Part shown: positions 10,030 through 16,198 of the stretch, in pieces
How the letters are laid out: each line of letters opens with the position of its first letter
Position numbering within the stretch: the stretch's first letter is position 1
DNA from: Bacteroidota bacterium
GTDB taxonomy: Bacteria; Bacteroidota; Bacteroidia; Bacteroidales; Dysgonomonadaceae
DNA length: 64,000 nucleotides
Direction of reading: 5' to 3'
Assembly (NCBI GenBank): GCA_023424395.1
Contig: JAFADY010000037.1
Span: 1,647 to 65,646 of the forward strand
The notes under the pieces: model-generated
Database searches by the model: none
Seen by the model: the letters and a program-made list of their open reading frames with translations, nothing else
What the model was told of the DNA's origin: nothing
Position numbers and translations under genes: made by a program

Positions 10030-11097
10030 ATGAAACGAAGATTATTGCTTTTGTTTTCTGTTTTTTTAAGTTACTTTCCTGCTCACGCGCAAGAATACAA
10101 TTGGGGGGTGAATTTCGATTATTTTTTCGATAATACCGAATATGGCAAATCTTCTCATATGGATTCTGAAACCATGAACGGTATTTGGATAGCTCCTATC
10201 GGTAGCATAATTTGGGACAACCGCCATTCGGTGAATGCCGGGGTTAATCTCTTGAAAATTCCCGGAATGGAAATGGTTATTGACAAAGCACACGTAACCA
10301 TGTATTATCAGTATAAAACCGATAAAATTCTTTTCAGGGCAGGTTCTTTTTCACGCAGAGATGTGTTGGGTAATTACAACAATTTCTTCTTCAAAGATTC
10401 GGTTAATAATTTCATGCCGTTAATGCAAGGTATTTTCTGGCAAATGGGAAATAACGATAATTTTTTTAATGCTTGGTTCGACAGAACCGGTTATGCCACT
10501 CCAACCAAACGCGAGCATTTTTTTGTGGGATTGTCGGGTAAATTTTCGAGAGGTCTATTTTTTGCCGATTTTCAATCGTATATGTTTCATTATTCAAATA
10601 CAAGGCCTTCAACTCCGGGACTGGGAGTAAGCGAAAATTTACAAATGCAAGCATCTGTCGGATTGCAATATGCCCATCAAAACAGTCTCTTAGGATTAAT
10701 TTCTGTTGGAACATTACTTGGTTACGAAAGAGACCGTCGTTTTGAGAACGAATTTTATAAACCGGTTGGTTTCGTTATGAGAGGCGACTTGGAATACGCA
10801 GGCATCGGGACAAGAAATATTTTGTATGTGGGCGACAACAGACAACGATTGGCCGATACATCCGGCAGTGAATTATACTGGGGAACACAATTTCTCAGAG
10901 AAAAGTTTTACCTCGAAAATGAATGGTACATCCGTTTGATAGAATCAGAAAGAATAAAAGCGCGGTTCAATTGTAACCTGCATTTTTCAGAAGGCAATGT
11001 TATGTTTCAGCAAATGCTTACCGTATCGGCCTCCATTGGAAACTCCATCGGAAATTCAAAAATAGTTTATCCCTGGATGGAAATATTCGGCCTCTAA
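10030..11097 (+). CDS. hypothetical outer-membrane (porin-like) protein
   Basis: Signal peptide ...SYFPAHAQ. Aromatic-rich beta-strand pattern throughout. No family recognised. Confidence 0.45.
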   Translation: MKRRLLLLFSVFLSYFPAHAQEYNWGVNFDYFFDNTEYGKSSHMDSETMNGIWIAPIGSIIWDNRHSVNAGVNLLKIPGMEMVIDKAHVTMYYQYKTDKILFRAGSFSRRDVLGNYNNFFFKDSVNNFMPLMQGIFWQMGNNDNFFNAWFDRTGYATPTKREHFFVGLSGKFSRGLFFADFQSYMFHYSNTRPSTPGLGVSENLQMQASVGLQYAHQNSLLGLISVGTLLGYERDRRFENEFYKPVGFVMRGDLEYAGIGTRNILYVGDNRQRLADTSGSELYWGTQFLREKFYLENEWYIRLIESERIKARFNCNLHFSEGNVMFQQMLTVSASIGNSIGNSKIVYPWMEIFGL

Positions 11098-13227: not shown

Positions 13228-13746
13228 ATGAAAATCAAAAATTTAACTAAATCGGTTATGATTGTTGCTCTATTAGGAGCAGTTACATTGTCTTCTTGCG
13301 ACAACACGAAACAAAATCGGAACACTACAGACGTTGACACTGCAGCGGTAGTTATTCAAAATGACGATGTTGTAACACGTAAAGATTTTTCTGTTTACAC
13401 CTACGAAGACAGAGAAAGAGTTGTAACAGAAGCCAATAGCGAATTAGACAGAATGGAGCAAAACATTGCTGAAAGAAAAGCCAGATTAGAAGCAGAATCG
13501 GCTCAAATGACTGCGGAAGCAAGAGCTGATTATGAAAGAAGAATTGCTGAACTCGAAAGAGAAAGAGACGAATTCAGAGCTGAAGTTGACAAAGTACAAA
13601 ATAGTACTGCAGAGAACTGGGAACAACTTAGAAGAGACATCGGTAATGCTTATGACAGAGCAGCTGCCGGCGTTGAAAGAGGTTGGGAAAACTTCAAAGA
13701 CGGAGTAGAAAAAGCCGCTAACGATGTAGAAGACGCAGTACAATAA
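13228..13746 (+). CDS. coiled-coil lipoprotein, function unknown
   Basis: Lipobox LSSC after the signal peptide. The remainder is E/R/A-rich and helical. Confidence 0.6.
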   Translation: MKIKNLTKSVMIVALLGAVTLSSCDNTKQNRNTTDVDTAAVVIQNDDVVTRKDFSVYTYEDRERVVTEANSELDRMEQNIAERKARLEAESAQMTAEARADYERRIAELERERDEFRAEVDKVQNSTAENWEQLRRDIGNAYDRAAAGVERGWENFKDGVEKAANDVEDAVQ

Positions 13747-13796: not shown

Positions 13797-15065
13797 TTAT
13801 CTCTCATGAGCAGTTCCGCGTCGTTCTGCTTTTACCATTTTGTAAAGTTGGTCGTTGGGACGGATTTTTTCGGGAGTTTTTATAGAAAAAAATTGTCCTT
13901 TACTGGCTTGCGATACCGGCTTTAAATCTACCCGTATATCTTTGGCTTTCAGGAAAACTGCTCCTGTAGTGGGCCCGGTAATTAGTAGTTCGTCGCCCTC
14001 ATTTACAGGTTGCGCCTCCACTAAAAATTCGCCTACGCTCAGATTTCCAAAAAATTTAATGGCTTTGCCCACATATACTTTTCGTTTTGTTGCTCCAGAG
14101 CCGTAACGATGTGTCCACTCGCCGAGGCGTTGTCCCAGATAATATCCGTCCCAAAACCCCCGATTGAAAACCGCTGCCAGTTTTTCGTTCCAAATATCTA
14201 TTTTTTTCTTTGTGAAATTATCGTTGCAATAAGCTTCGATAGCTTCTTTATAACATGAAGTTACAACACGCACATATTCGGGGCCGCGTGCACGCCCCTC
14301 GATTTTGAAAACCCGAACGCCCGCATCCATCATTTTATTCATAAAATGAATGGTTTTTAGGTCTTTCGGCGACATGATGTATTCATTGTCGATTTCAAGT
14401 TCAATTTCGCTGTCTTTGTCTTTAACTATATATCCGCGTCGGCAAATTTGGTTGCACGCCCCGCGGTTTGCCGATAAATCCTTTTCGTGAAGGCTTAGAT
14501 AGCATTTTCCCGAAACTGCCATGCACAGCGCTCCGTGCGCAAACATTTCGATTCTGATGAGTTCACCCGAAGGGCCTTTTATTCGTTGTTCGGTAATATC
14601 CTTATGAATAGCCGCAACTTGATCCAGATTAAGTTCACGAGCCAAAACCACCACATCGGCAAATTGGGCGTAAAACTTCAGAGAATCGGTATTGGTAATA
14701 TTTAGCTGCGTGGATAAATGAACTTCCACGCCAATGCTTCGCGCATACATCATCACAGCTACATCTGCCGCAATTATTGCCGAGAGTCGGGCTTCCTTGG
14801 CAGCATCCACAACACGGCGCATTAATTCCATATCGTTGTTATAGATAATGGTATTAACCGTGAGGTAGCTCTTAATACCGTTTTCTTTGCATATTTCGGC
14901 AATTTTGTGCAAGTCTTCGATGGTGAAATTATTAGAAGATTTGGCGCGCATATTTAATCCTTCTATGCCGAAATAAATGGAATCTGCCCCGCCCTGAATG
15001 GCCGCCATTAACGATTCGTAAGAACCAGCAGGCGACATAATTTCATAATCCTGAATATTTTTCAT
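13797..15065 (-). CDS. peptidase U32 family protein
   Basis: MKNIQDYEIMSPAGSYESLMAAIQGGADSIYFG is a typical U32 N-terminus. The -7 box at 15096-15103 supports the ATG at 15065 rather than 15098. Confidence 0.85.
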   Translation of the reverse strand: MKNIQDYEIMSPAGSYESLMAAIQGGADSIYFGIEGLNMRAKSSNNFTIEDLHKIAEICKENGIKSYLTVNTIIYNNDMELMRRVVDAAKEARLSAIIAADVAVMMYARSIGVEVHLSTQLNITNTDSLKFYAQFADVVVLARELNLDQVAAIHKDITEQRIKGPSGELIRIEMFAHGALCMAVSGKCYLSLHEKDLSANRGACNQICRRGYIVKDKDSEIELEIDNEYIMSPKDLKTIHFMNKMMDAGVRVFKIEGRARGPEYVRVVTSCYKEAIEAYCNDNFTKKKIDIWNEKLAAVFNRGFWDGYYLGQRLGEWTHRYGSGATKRKVYVGKAIKFFGNLSVGEFLVEAQPVNEGDELLITGPTTGAVFLKAKDIRVDLKPVSQASKGQFFSIKTPEKIRPNDQLYKMVKAERRGTAHER

Positions 15066-15095
15066 TCTAAAACTGTCAAGCTGTAATTTGAGTTG

Positions 15096-15103
15096 CAAAA
15101 TTA
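15096..15103 (-). promoter_or_regulatory. -7 promoter box (TAATTTTG on minus strand) for the U32 peptidase gene
   Basis: Plus-strand CAAAATTA lies 31 nt upstream of the ATG at 15065. Confidence 0.45.
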
Positions 15104-15197: not shown

Positions 15198-16118
15198 ATG
15201 AATAACAAACATCTTTTACTCTTCGCTATAACTTTGTTGTTTGTATCGTGCGGAAGCCGGAAAAATGCACTTCCTCCGGATAGTGTTTACACAAAAAATG
15301 AGCAGGCTATGTTGTACGAGTATCCTAAATTAAACGGATATCATGCACAAGTAATAAAAGTGGATCCGCGTGAATCGGAAGATAGGCTGAAAATACAAAT
15401 TGTGCCCGGCAAACAAATGGAGATCGATTGCAACAAACACGGTTTACAGGGAAAATACGAACGCAAAATGCTTGGAAATGGCGATACCTATTTCGTGTTT
15501 CTCTCAAAAGGAGAAGTGTTTTCTACAAAGATGGGATGCCCTGATAATACCAAAAGAATGTCTTTCGTTCCCGGCCCCACAATTTTTACTCCTTACAACA
15601 GCGCTCGTCCGTTTGTTGTTTACACGCCAACCGGTGTTGGTTTGAAATATCGTATTTGGGAAGCGGATGAAACACTATATAATGTCAGTAACAAAATAGA
15701 CTCATCCGTTAAAACCGATGCTGCTGATCTATTAAAAGCGTTTCCCGAATCGCTGCCGGGATATGACAGATATGTACTGTTATTAACTCCCTTATCTGAA
15801 AATCAGCAAACTACTGAAATGAAAGTAGAAATAATTCCCGGGAAGAACGAAAGGGTGGATTGCAACAAACATACATTGAACGGCAAATTGAGAACCGAAA
15901 CTGTAGAAGGTTGGGGATTGGAATATTTGGTTTTCGATTCCGATGGAAAATACGCTTCAACCCGCATGGGATGCCCCGATCAAAAACTTTCGGAAGAATT
16001 TATATTTGGACAAACACAAACCATTTCATACAATAGCGATGTTCCCACCGTTATCTTTGTGCCTAAAGGTTTTCAAGCAAAGTATCGGGTTTGGAAAAGC
16101 CCTGCGATTGTTTTGTAA
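15198..16118 (+). CDS. eco: tandem (two-domain) ecotin-family serine protease inhibitor, lipoprotein
   Basis: Lipobox FVSC. Two repeats (about aa 40-160 and 180-306) each align to E. coli ecotin: (I/V)DCNKH, STKMGCPD / STRMGCPD versus STMMACPD, VEGWGLEYLVFD versus LEGWGYDYYVFD, and KYR(I/V)W at the C-terminus. Confidence 0.8.
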   Translation: MNNKHLLLFAITLLFVSCGSRKNALPPDSVYTKNEQAMLYEYPKLNGYHAQVIKVDPRESEDRLKIQIVPGKQMEIDCNKHGLQGKYERKMLGNGDTYFVFLSKGEVFSTKMGCPDNTKRMSFVPGPTIFTPYNSARPFVVYTPTGVGLKYRIWEADETLYNVSNKIDSSVKTDAADLLKAFPESLPGYDRYVLLLTPLSENQQTTEMKVEIIPGKNERVDCNKHTLNGKLRTETVEGWGLEYLVFDSDGKYASTRMGCPDQKLSEEFIFGQTQTISYNSDVPTVIFVPKGFQAKYRVWKSPAIVL

Positions 16119-16190: not shown

Positions 16191-16198
16191 TATCTTTG
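16191..16198 (+). promoter_or_regulatory. -7 promoter box (TATCTTTG) for the rpsF-rpsR-rplI operon
   Basis: Lies 56 nt upstream of the rpsF ATG. Confidence 0.55.

What the first reader, a model, noticed from the sequence alone, without database searches (positions are those of the whole stretch)
15198..16118. Tandem-fused double ecotin lipoprotein with basic (Lys, Arg) predicted P1 residues
The 306-aa lipoprotein contains two complete ecotin-like domains in one chain. Both keep the disulfide cysteines ((I/V)DCNKH ... GCPD) and the C-terminal KYR(I/V)W strand. Aligned to the E. coli ecotin reactive loop S-T-M84-M-A-C-P-D, domain 1 reads S-T-K111-M-G-C-P-D (codon 15528-15530) and domain 2 reads S-T-R256-M-G-C-P-D (codon 15963-15965). 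Canonical ecotin is a single-domain periplasmic protein that works as a C-terminal-arm-swapped homodimer chelating two proteases. A covalent fusion would make an obligate pseudo-dimer with two non-identical reactive loops, both predicted to favour trypsin-like proteases. The first domain has also lost the EGWG motif (LGNGDTY), so the two halves are diverging.
Basis: partly seen in the sequence, partly recalled or inferred. Interest (0 to 1): 0.65.

Follow-up and report, generated by a model that had tools for sequence, protein, structure and literature searches.

The report
Natural two-domain (tandem) ecotin lipoprotein
This gene encodes a membrane-tethered protein made of two fused copies of the bacterial serine-protease inhibitor ecotin, a conserved but unstudied Bacteroidales variant that probably builds ecotin's usual two-subunit protease trap from a single chain with two unequal halves.

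Summary
ORF 15198-16118 (+) encodes a 306-aa protein with a lipoprotein signal (FVSC18) and two complete ecotin domains: Pfam PF03974 gives two stretches, and each half alone scores E 3e-31 and 6e-37. All four disulfide cysteines are present. The reactive loops are STK111MGCPD and STR256MGCPD.

It is not a one-off. At least 38 protein clusters and 21 GTDB species, all Bacteroidia where named, carry the same ~300-aa fusion. RefSeq calls it only "ecotin family protein", and I found no paper describing it.

The duplication is old: D1 and D2 are 38% identical, and the D2 domains form one clade. The halves are asymmetric.
- D2 resembles canonical ecotin. It keeps the GWGY secondary-site loop, has P1 Arg in 29 of 38 sequences, and has a shortened dimerisation arm (7 versus 12 residues).
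- D1 has lost the GWGY loop and has a fast-changing P1 (L, Q, M, K, R, N).

AlphaFold models of two members are confident (pTM 0.76 and 0.73), and their top matches are all ecotin. This fits a fixed intramolecular pseudo-dimer, but I could not inspect the geometry.

Basic P1 residues are common in ordinary ecotins (33 of 75), so that part is unremarkable. Verdict: a real, uncharacterised variant of a known inhibitor, of moderate interest.

The parts
15198..16118 (+). Gene for the 306-aa tandem ecotin lipoprotein (stop codon included)
   Evidence: ORF. Pfam Ecotin matched twice. Identical protein P0001 is on public contigs.
15198..15251 (+). Lipoprotein signal peptide MNNKHLLLFAITLLFVSC. The lipobox FVSC is at 15240-15251 and the lipidated Cys18 is the last residue.
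   Evidence: Sequence. Cys18 is invariant in 38 family members. Residues 4-16 are modelled as a helix.
15252..15317 (+). Tether between the lipid anchor and domain 1 (GSRKNALPPDS...). It is basic and has no acidic surface-export signal.
   Evidence: pLDDT is below 50 for residues 17-28. Net charge of positions +2 to +7 is positive in 37 of 38 members. The export signal is defined as C-X-K-(D/E)2 in PMC5080379.
15318..15665 (+). Ecotin domain 1 (residues 41-156), the derived copy
   Evidence: Pfam E 3.3e-31 on this half alone. PDB ecotin 1ezs_A matches residues 41-162. Single-domain ecotins mostly score higher against the D2 profile than the D1 profile.
15429..15431 (+). Cys78, domain 1 disulfide partner (E. 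coli Cys50 equivalent)
   Evidence: Invariant in the family.
15471..15491 (+). Domain 1 60s loop LGNGDTY, the degenerate form of the secondary binding site (E. coli L64-Y71, EGWGYDY)
   Evidence: One-residue deletion and loss of Trp. Column entropies are 2.4-2.6 bits. By contrast, 73 of 76 single-domain ecotins keep G-[WYFM]-G-[YF].
15522..15545 (+). Domain 1 reactive loop STKMGCPD. P1 Lys111 is at 15528-15530 and Cys114 at 15537-15539.
   Evidence: Aligned to E. coli S82-D89. P1 in the family is L17, Q7, M7, K4, R2, N1.
15660..15740 (+). Domain 1 C-terminal arm plus linker plus the N-terminal helix of domain 2 (residues 155-181, EADETLYNVSNKIDSSVKTDAADLLKA)
   Evidence: 27 residues, against 24 for the E. 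coli arm (131-142) plus its N-terminal segment (1-12). pLDDT is 81-84. Residues 161-164 form beta bridges and 174-181 form a helix.
15732..16097 (+). Ecotin domain 2 (residues 179-300), the canonical-like copy
   Evidence: Pfam E 6.1e-37 on this half alone. PDB ecotin hits at E 7e-28. The D2 domains form one clade.
15861..15863 (+). Cys222, domain 2 disulfide partner
   Evidence: Invariant.
15906..15926 (+). Domain 2 60s loop EGWGLEY, a conserved part of the secondary binding site
   Evidence: G238 and G240 are present in 36 of 38 members, W239 in 25 of 38 (aromatic in 36 of 38) and Tyr at position 241 in 31 of 38.
15957..15980 (+). Domain 2 reactive loop STRMGCPD. P1 Arg256 is at 15963-15965 and Cys259 at 15972-15974.
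   Evidence: Aligns residue for residue with ecotin M84R in PDB 1id5 (STRMACPD). P1 is Arg in 29 of 38 family members.
16095..16115 (+). Shortened C-terminal arm of domain 2 (KSPAIVL)
   Evidence: The tail after the conserved Trp has a median of 7 residues in D2 (n=37) and 12 in single-domain ecotins (n=71), Mann-Whitney p = 8.6e-15.

Best explanation
The gene encodes a lipid-anchored serine-protease inhibitor that most likely faces the periplasm. It is built from two ecotin domains that arose by an old tandem duplication and fusion in Bacteroidia.

Shown: both domains keep the ecotin fold signature, the disulfide cysteines and a canonical reactive loop.

Inferred: the two domains pack against each other like the two protomers of an ecotin homodimer. 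One chain would then offer two different 'chelating' sites, each made of the reactive loop (site 1) of one domain and the secondary site (site 2) of the other.
- Trap A is the D2 loop, with the family-conserved P1 Arg256, paired with the degenerate site 2 of D1. It would rely on a strong Arg-S1 pocket interaction and is specialised for trypsin-like S1 proteases.
- Trap B is the D1 loop, with a fast-evolving P1 (Lys111 here; Leu, Met or Gln in most relatives), paired with the conserved GWG(Y/L) site 2 of D2. It would be the adaptable site, helped by the secondary contact.

The covalent link would replace arm-mediated dimerisation, which would explain why the terminal arm of D2 has been shortened. 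The likely role is to protect the cell envelope from foreign trypsin-like proteases, as ecotin does. The actual targets are unknown.
For: Two domains:
- Pfam, NCBIfam and PDB sequence hits all cover both halves.

Fold:
- The AF2 model has pLDDT 87.6.
- The 29 best PDB matches are all ecotin, at TM 0.74-0.84.
- Both halves have the same ten-strand layout.

Fixed two-domain body:
- pTM is 0.76 for the window protein and 0.73 for P0029, which is 44% identical.
- About 30 N-terminal residues are disordered. A floppy pair of ~130-residue domains could not reach those pTM values.
- Linker pLDDT is 81-84.

Conserved architecture:
- 38 aligned full-length sequences share an invariant lipobox Cys and four invariant disulfide Cys.
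- 21 of the 80 GTDB species loci returned carry the fusion, all of them Bacteroidia.

Old duplication:
- Mean identity is 46% among D1 domains, 53% among D2 domains and 38% between D1 and D2.
- The D2 domains form one clade.

Asymmetry:
- D2 keeps G-W-G-Y and Y-N-S, with entropies of about 0.3-1.3 bits, while D1 does not.
- P1 of D2 is Arg in 29 of 38, whereas P1 of D1 is variable.
- The D2 arm is 7 residues against 12 in single-domain ecotins, p = 8.6e-15.

Published ecotin mechanism (PMC9136129; PMC6944378):
- Site 1 of one protomer and site 2 of the other chelate each protease.
- Removing the 10-residue C-terminal arm gives monomers.
- P1 Arg compensates for a weakened site 2 or for monomerisation.
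- This is the same trade-off seen here between Arg-D2 and the degenerate site 2 of D1.

The same coupling appears elsewhere:
- In the unfused adjacent gene pair in L029, the first gene lacks WGY and has P1 Leu. The second has GMGYDY and P1 Lys.
- In P0053 the order is reversed. D1 has EGYGY and P1 Arg, while D2 has a degenerate 60s loop and P1 Leu.

Localisation:
- Lipobox Cys18 is present.
- Positions +2 to +7 carry net positive charge in 37 of 38 members, with no K-(D/E)2 surface-export signal.

Native gene:
- GC is 0.40 against 0.42 for the window.
Against: - The inter-domain geometry was never seen. Only pTM, pLDDT and secondary structure were available, so an ecotin-dimer-like packing is inferred rather than shown.
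- The Arg108 equivalent of site 2 is not conserved in either domain, so site 2 of D2 is only partly canonical.
- The coupling between 'Arg site 1' and 'degenerate partner site 2' rests on few independent events and is confounded by phylogeny. Some tandem ecotins (P0050, P0051, P0052, P0071) keep the motif in both domains.
- No activity, target protease, lipidation or localisation has been measured.
- There is no conserved neighbouring gene that could point to a target.
- No S1 protease was found among the ten window ORFs scanned.
- No Bacteroidetes-type TAnnTTTG promoter box lies in the 99 nt upstream.
Confidence: 0.6

Rival explanations
1. Beads on a string, or a dimer of tandems. The two ecotin domains do not pair with each other. 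Each acts as an independent inhibitor, or pairs with a domain of a second chain to give a four-site assembly.
For: The geometry was not inspected. D1 keeps a full-length arm region that could still mediate swapping. C-terminally truncated ecotin monomers still form heterotetramers through the protease (PMC9136129), so pre-formed pairing is not strictly needed.
Against: - pTM of 0.76 and 0.73 with a confident linker argues for one compact body.
- The terminal arm of D2 is systematically shortened. That would weaken intermolecular arm exchange.
- The connector is only about 3 residues longer than an ecotin arm plus N-terminal segment, which leaves little slack for independent tumbling.
Confidence: 0.22
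2. Only domain 2 is a working inhibitor. Domain 1 is a decaying copy kept as a scaffold that supplies dimer-like support, or as a spacer from the membrane.
For: - D1 is the more divergent copy (46% versus 53% within-set identity) and has lost the GWGY motif.
- Single-domain ecotins mostly score better against the D2 profile.
- A single-domain protein (P0041) nested in the D2 clade shows that D1 can be lost.
Against: - D1 keeps both cysteines invariant.
- D1 keeps Thr110 (38 of 38), Met112 (36 of 38) and Pro115 (34 of 38) of the reactive loop.
- Its P1 changes among near-identical proteins while the flanking residues stay fixed (K, K, Q, R). That is the pattern of a reactive site under selection, not of decay.
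- In the rare members with a degenerate loop (P0008, P0037), it is the D2 loop that has decayed.
Confidence: 0.1
3. Artefact. Two adjacent ecotin genes were joined by an assembly or frameshift error.
For: Adjacent unfused ecotin genes do exist in one genome (L029).
Against: - The ORF is uninterrupted.
- The identical protein occurs on four contigs, among them an ENA assembly and a Logan assembly of a different run.
- The same fused length occurs in 21 species genomes, including the cultured Proteiniphilum acetatigenes DSM 18083.
Confidence: 0.01

Closest known systems
E. coli ecotin (MEROPS I11, Pfam PF03974), a periplasmic homodimer
   Same: - Each half is about 39-41% identical to it.
- Same fold.
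- Same Cys50-Cys87 pair.
- Same S-T-P1-M-x-C-P-D reactive loop.
- Probably the same compartment (the periplasm) and the same chelating logic of site 1 plus site 2 (PMC9136129).
   Different: - One chain carries both 'protomers'.
- The two halves are unequal: P1 is Lys versus Arg, against Met in E. coli ecotin. Only D2 keeps the GWG(Y) secondary-site loop.
- The terminal arm is shortened.
- It has a lipoprotein anchor instead of a soluble periplasmic form.
Engineered ecotin variants: M84R or M84K 'site1R', the R108A/N110A site 2 mutant, and arm-deleted monomeric ecotin
   Same: The D2 loop STRMGCPD matches the M84R ecotin crystallised with thrombin, factor Xa and factor XIa (1id5, 1p0s, 1xx9). 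The natural pairing of 'Arg site 1 with a weak partner site 2' mirrors the finding that P1 Arg compensates for a weakened site 2 or for monomerisation.
   Different: Those variants are laboratory-made, symmetric homodimers or monomers. This protein is a natural, covalently linked and asymmetric version.
Adjacent single-domain ecotin lipoprotein genes in a Bacteroidetes MAG (L029 4998-5474 and 5576-6061)
   Same: Same order and same asymmetry. The first copy lacks WGY and has P1 Leu, and is weakly D1-like. The second copy has GMGYDY and P1 Lys, and is D2-like. Both have lipoprotein signals.
   Different: They are two separate genes about 100 nt apart, each with its own signal peptide. This may be an unfused counterpart or precursor state of the fusion. 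The relationship is weakly supported (HMM scores 94 versus 86 for the first gene).
Classic multi-headed canonical inhibitors (Bowman-Birk double-headed inhibitors, multi-domain Kazal ovomucoids). Comparison from general knowledge, not tested here.
   Same: One chain carries two reactive loops with different P1 residues, and so different specificities.
   Different: The folds are unrelated. Ecotin domains also use a secondary site on the partner domain, so the two heads are expected to cooperate rather than act independently.
Potempins of Tannerella forsythia (PMC9890683, abstract seen)
   Same: They are outer-membrane-anchored lipoprotein protease inhibitors in Bacteroidota.
   Different: They have unrelated sequences, are encoded next to their cognate secreted peptidases and are specific for them. 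This gene has no protease neighbour and no conserved context.

Membership tests
Ecotin (Pfam PF03974 / NCBIfam NF002987 / MEROPS I11) | Profile match above the curated threshold | tested here: met
   Pfam gives 230.9 bits for the whole protein, and 108.2 and 126.7 bits for the separate halves, against a cut-off of 22.2. NCBIfam gives 238 bits against 162.
Ecotin (Pfam PF03974 / NCBIfam NF002987 / MEROPS I11) | Ecotin beta fold | tested here: met
   AF2 pLDDT is 87.6. The 29 top Foldseek PDB hits are all ecotin, at TM (target-normalised) 0.74-0.84. The reported alignment covers one domain. The other half shows the same ten-strand layout and its own sequence match to 1ezs_A.
Ecotin (Pfam PF03974 / NCBIfam NF002987 / MEROPS I11) | Disulfide Cys50-Cys87 holding the reactive loop | tested here: met
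   C78/C114 and C222/C259 align to Cys50/Cys87 and are invariant in 38 sequences. Actual bond formation cannot be tested here.
Ecotin (Pfam PF03974 / NCBIfam NF002987 / MEROPS I11) | Canonical reactive loop S-T-P1-M-x-C-P-D (site 1) | tested here: met
   STKMGCPD and STRMGCPD.
Ecotin (Pfam PF03974 / NCBIfam NF002987 / MEROPS I11) | Secondary binding site (60s loop W67-D70; 100s loop R108-N110) | tested here: inconclusive
   - D2 has a conserved 60s motif (EGWGLEY) and Y-N-S, but lacks the Arg108 equivalent.
- D1 has lost the 60s motif (LGNGDTY) and keeps Y-N-S only in this subclade.
- So the feature is partly met in D2 and not met in D1.
Ecotin (Pfam PF03974 / NCBIfam NF002987 / MEROPS I11) | Homodimer held by exchanged C-terminal arms | not testable with these tools
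   - The homodimer is replaced by a covalent D1-D2 link.
- The D2 arm is shortened to 7 residues.
- pTM of 0.76 and 0.73 suggests fixed packing.
- Coordinates and PAE were not available.
Ecotin (Pfam PF03974 / NCBIfam NF002987 / MEROPS I11) | Tight-binding inhibition of S1A serine proteases | not testable with these tools
   This needs enzyme assays. For now it is only inferred from the intact loops.
Bacteroidia tandem-ecotin lipoproteins (the ~300-aa family defined here) | Lipobox Cys, two ecotin domains, four conserved Cys, length about 296-317 aa | tested here: met
   The window protein is 41-85% identical to most aligned members and 34-36% to the three most divergent (P0037, P0038, P0040). 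It shares all invariant columns. Its closest genome relative is a Bacteroidia MAG at 77% identity, with the same U32-ecotin-rpsF neighbourhood.
Surface-exposed Bacteroidetes lipoproteins (LES-dependent) | Acidic export signal C-X-K-(D/E)2 or S-D-D-D-D directly after the lipidated Cys | tested here: not met
   The mature N-terminus is C-GSRKNA, net charge +2 with no acidic pair. The same holds in 37 of 38 members. The signal is defined in PMC5080379.

The most novel reading that the evidence does not exclude
Bacteroidia have evolved a natural single-chain ecotin heterodimer with a division of labour between its two traps.
- One is a conserved trap driven by site 1: P1 Arg paired with a partner domain whose secondary site has decayed.
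- The other is a fast-evolving trap assisted by site 2: a variable P1 paired with a conserved GWGY secondary site.

The fusion would descend from adjacent gene pairs that already encoded obligate ecotin heterodimers. This would be a natural counterpart of the site 1 / site 2 energy trade-off measured in engineered ecotins. It would also offer a ready-made asymmetric scaffold for bispecific protease inhibitors.
Probability: 0.4. Interest if true: 0.6.

Novelty: new variant of a known kind. Interest (0 to 1): 0.45.

Why it matters
Ecotin is the textbook case of an inhibitor whose breadth comes from a symmetric homodimer. Each protease is clamped between the reactive loop of one subunit and a secondary site of the other.

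A natural fusion in which the two 'subunits' have been free to diverge shows what evolution does once that symmetry is broken. It would give ecotin researchers three things:
- a stable, asymmetric, single-chain scaffold with two independently tunable sites;
- a natural test of the site 1 / site 2 / pre-organisation trade-off;
- a hint that many environmental Bacteroidales defend their envelope against trypsin-like proteases from neighbours or grazers, not only against mammalian hosts.

It also corrects database practice, because these proteins are labelled simply 'ecotin family protein'.

The limits are clear. Multi-headed inhibitors are common in other families, the architecture is already visible in public databases, and no activity data exist.

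Tried and rejected
- Assembly or frameshift artefact: rejected. The ORF is continuous, the identical protein is on independent assemblies, and 21 species carry the fusion.
- Recent horizontal acquisition: no support. GC is 0.40 against 0.42 for the window. Synteny with U32 and rpsF is shared with the closest MAGs.
- Operon partner or cognate protease: none found. The neighbours are housekeeping genes (ligA, peptidase U32 on the opposite strand, rpsF-rpsR-rplI). The context differs in Proteiniphilum and other genera. None of ten further window ORFs is an S1 protease.
- Surface exposure: rejected as the default, because there is no acidic export signal.
- 'Basic P1 is unusual': rejected. Arg or Lys occurs at P1 in 33 of 75 single-domain ecotins.
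- Direct test of pseudo-dimer geometry: not possible. The structure tools return only confidence values and secondary structure. Foldseek compares single chains, so the best query-normalised TM was 0.39, which corresponds to one domain. No solved tandem ecotin exists in the PDB copy.
- First genome scan with the 38-sequence alignment: failed because no block was conserved enough. It was repeated with 13 sequences.
- Literature: searches for ecotin with tandem, Bacteroid*, single-chain and C-terminal arm, plus all ecotin papers from 2023 on, found no description of a two-domain ecotin. The library excludes most subscription journals, so absence is not proof.
- Promoter: there is no sigma-70-like signal above background and no TAnnTTTG box upstream. 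Expression signals remain unresolved.
- Rfam and tRNA scans of the window found nothing.
Full report
**1. What is in the sequence**

The + strand ORF 15198-16118 starts with ATG and encodes 306 residues.
- Lys111 is AAG at 15528-15530.
- Arg256 is CGC at 15963-15965.
- The cysteine motifs are EIDCNKH (C78) with MGCPD (C114), and RVDCNKH (C222) with MGCPD (C259).
- The C-terminal strands read LKYRIW and AKYRVW.
- Domain 1 has LGNGDTY where domain 2 has EGWGLEY.

The N-terminus MNNKHLLLFAITLLFVSC has the form of a lipoprotein signal, with the lipobox Cys at position 18.

**2. Is it really two ecotin domains?**

Yes.
- Pfam PF03974 matches with two stretches (E 3.4e-69). The two halves submitted separately score E 3.3e-31 and 6.1e-37.
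- NCBIfam's ecotin equivalog model also matches twice.
- Solved ecotin structures match both residues 178-302 and residues 41-162 by sequence. The domain 2 loop aligns residue for residue with the M84R ecotin crystallised with thrombin.
- An AlphaFold2 model built on 38 family sequences is confident (pLDDT 87.6, pTM 0.76) and shows the same ten-strand layout in both halves.
- The 29 best PDB fold matches are all ecotin chains, at target-normalised TM 0.74-0.84.

**3. How widespread is it?**
- A search of 5.8 billion proteins found the identical protein and about 39 further clusters of 296-331 residues with the same architecture. The few that carry names are 'ecotin family protein' or 'ecotin', from Bacteroidia, Proteiniphilum and Porphyromonadaceae.
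- A scan of one genome per GTDB species returned 80 ecotin loci. Of these, 21 encode the fused two-domain form, and all 21 are Bacteroidia: Proteiniphilum (including the cultured P. acetatigenes DSM 18083), Dysgonomonadaceae, Paludibacter and Paludibacteraceae, and unclassified MAGs. A further 58 encode single-domain ecotins, and one has two adjacent single-domain genes.
- The window's own genome is not a GTDB representative. Its closest relative is a Bacteroidia MAG at 77% identity, with the same peptidase-U32 / ecotin / rpsF-rpsR-rplI neighbourhood.
- A profile search of 1.84 billion 50%-identity representatives found 949 ecotin-family proteins. About 22 of the best 150 have two domains.
- Some of these look like separate duplications, judged by reading the sequences rather than from a tree. 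P0051 has two visibly very similar repeats. P0053 has the derived domain second. P0064 has lost all four cysteines.
- RefSeq lists the P. acetatigenes protein as WP_019538081.1, 'ecotin family protein'.
- I found no paper describing a two-domain ecotin. No solved structure has two ecotin domains in one chain.

**4. History of the two halves**
- Mean identity is 46% among D1 domains, 53% among D2 domains, and 38% between D1 and D2.
- In a neighbour-joining tree the D2 domains form one clade. This indicates a single duplication that predates the spread of the family.
- One single-domain lipoprotein (P0041) nests inside the D2 clade, which suggests later loss of D1.
- E. coli ecotin and most single-domain ecotins score higher against the D2 profile than the D1 profile. 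D2 is therefore the conservative copy and D1 the derived one.
- At the nucleotide level the two halves of the window gene share only a 54-nt stretch at 74% identity.
- The gene's GC content (0.40) matches the window's (0.42), so it looks native.

**5. The asymmetry**

I mapped E. coli ecotin's functional loops onto both domains and measured column variability across the 38 sequences.
- **Reactive loop.** It is conserved in both domains (S-T-x-M-[GA]-C-P-D).
- **P1 residue.** In D2 it is Arg in 29 of 38, Leu in 4, Lys in 3 and other in 2. In D1 it is Leu 17, Gln 7, Met 7, Lys 4, Arg 2 and Asn 1.
- **P1 among close relatives.** Among the window's closest relatives (75-85% identical), D1 P1 reads K, K, Q, R while the flanking residues stay identical. 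That is typical of a reactive site under changing selection.
- **60s loop of the secondary site.** It is conserved in D2. Gly238 and Gly240 are present in 36 of 38, the position of Trp239 is aromatic in 36 of 38, and Tyr is present at position 241 in 31 of 38. D1 has a one-residue deletion and high variability there. By contrast, 73 of 76 single-domain ecotins keep G-[WYFM]-G-[YF].
- **100s loop.** The Y-N-S motif is invariant or nearly so in D2 and looser in D1. The Arg108 equivalent is not conserved in either.
- **Terminal arm.** The tail after the conserved Trp of the last strand has a median of 7 residues in D2, against 12 in 71 single-domain ecotins (p = 8.6e-15).
- **Connector.** The segment from Trp154 of D1 to the F-P-E motif of D2 is 27 residues. 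That is almost exactly an E. coli arm (12) plus an N-terminal segment (12).

**6. Mechanism**

Published work establishes three points (PMC9136129; PMC6944378):
- The ecotin homodimer is held mainly by its C-terminal arms.
- Each protease is clamped between site 1 of one protomer and site 2 of the other.
- Deleting the 10-residue arm gives monomers, and a P1 Arg compensates for a weakened site 2 or for loss of pre-organisation.

Putting this together with section 5, I propose that the fusion is an intramolecular pseudo-dimer with two unlike traps.
- In one trap, Arg256 of D2 works with the decayed site 2 of D1. This is a site-1-driven trap for trypsin-like enzymes.
- In the other, the variable P1 of D1 (Lys111 here) works with the conserved site 2 of D2.
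- The covalent link makes the terminal arm dispensable, which would explain why it has shortened.

The status of each step is as follows.
- **Shown:** two intact ecotin domains, the asymmetry, and family conservation.
- **Supported indirectly:** a fixed D1-D2 body. pTM is 0.76 here and 0.73 for P0029 at 44% identity, despite about 30 disordered residues, and linker pLDDT is 81-84.
- **Inferred:** ecotin-like geometry, cross-domain chelation and actual inhibition.

Two further cases show the same coupling, where the domain with intact site 2 carries the basic P1 and the domain without it carries Leu.
- The reversed-order protein P0053.
- The unfused adjacent gene pair in L029.

These are few events. 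Several other tandem ecotins keep the motif in both domains.

**7. Location and role**
- Lipobox Cys18 is invariant in the family.
- The residues after it are basic (C-GSRKNA), with net positive charge in 37 of 38 members.
- They lack the acidic K-(D/E)2 or SDDDD signal that sends Bacteroidetes lipoproteins to the cell surface (PMC5080379).
- I therefore predict a lipoprotein that faces the periplasm, on a flexible tether of roughly 20 residues (pLDDT below 50 for residues 17-28). This is the same compartment as soluble ecotin.
- There is no conserved neighbour and no protease gene nearby.
- Judging only by their isolate names, several related MAGs appear to come from bioreactors or digesters. 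If so, likely targets are foreign trypsin-like proteases from co-resident organisms rather than mammalian defence proteases. This is speculation.

**8. Comparison, novelty and score**

By every sequence and fold criterion the protein belongs to the ecotin family. It departs from the family description in four ways:
- quaternary organisation (fused rather than homodimeric);
- loss of the secondary-site loop in one domain;
- a shortened terminal arm;
- a lipid anchor.

Arg or Lys is at P1 in 33 of 75 single-domain ecotins sampled.

I classify it as a new variant of a known kind. It is visible in databases but undescribed and uncharacterised. Interest is moderate (0.45). The asymmetric single-chain trap is a neat, testable idea and a useful scaffold. 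However, multi-headed inhibitors are common in other families, and the central structural inference is still unverified.

Noticed in passing
L029 4998-5474 and 5576-6061 (Bacteroidetes MAG OH_PBlB_53): Two adjacent, separately signalled single-domain ecotin lipoprotein genes about 100 nt apart. The first lacks the WGY loop and has P1 Leu. The second has GMGYDY and P1 Lys. This may be an unfused counterpart of the tandem protein.
   Followed up: partly
Protein P0041 (176 aa, tree): A single-domain ecotin lipoprotein that nests inside the domain 2 clade of the tandem family. This suggests secondary loss of domain 1, or a truncated gene call.
   Followed up: no
Proteins P0051 (432 aa) and P0057 (504 aa): Two-domain ecotins with C-terminal extensions of roughly 130 and 200 residues of unknown nature. 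The two ecotin repeats of P0051 look very similar to each other, which suggests a recent, separate duplication.
   Followed up: no
Protein P0064 (312 aa): A tandem ecotin in which all four disulfide cysteines are replaced (DGVNH and GVPAG). It has an ordinary, non-lipoprotein signal peptide and is probably from another phylum.
   Followed up: no
Proteins P0008 and P0037: In these family members the domain 2 reactive loop is degenerate (SDKTDCPD and LKDEKCKK), although the cysteine is retained. In them, domain 1 may be the only active head.
   Followed up: no
L004 and L022 (MAG OH_PBlB_29): One genome carries two paralogous tandem ecotin genes on different contigs, 54% and 35% identical to the window protein.
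   Followed up: no
window 13163, 16191, 18620, 21632, 30800, 44790, 51601 (+ strand): The box TATCTTTG, which fits the Bacteroidetes-type TAnnTTTG promoter motif, lies upstream of many genes in the window, between 5 and 65 nt from the start codon and 25-65 nt at most of the listed sites. One example is at 16191, before rpsF. No such box lies in the 99 nt upstream of the ecotin gene, so its promoter is unidentified.
   Followed up: partly
window 13228-13746 (+) and 10030-11097 (+): A 172-aa ORF with a lipoprotein-like signal (LSSC) and a charged, possibly coiled-coil body, and a 355-aa ORF. Neither has any Pfam match at E <= 1e-5. Both are also called as genes on the public contig.
   Followed up: no
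window 13797-15098 (-): The peptidase U32 ORF runs to a TTG at 15098 (433 aa), but the public gene call is 422 aa. The true start is probably a downstream ATG, which would widen the intergenic region shared with the ecotin gene.
   Followed up: no
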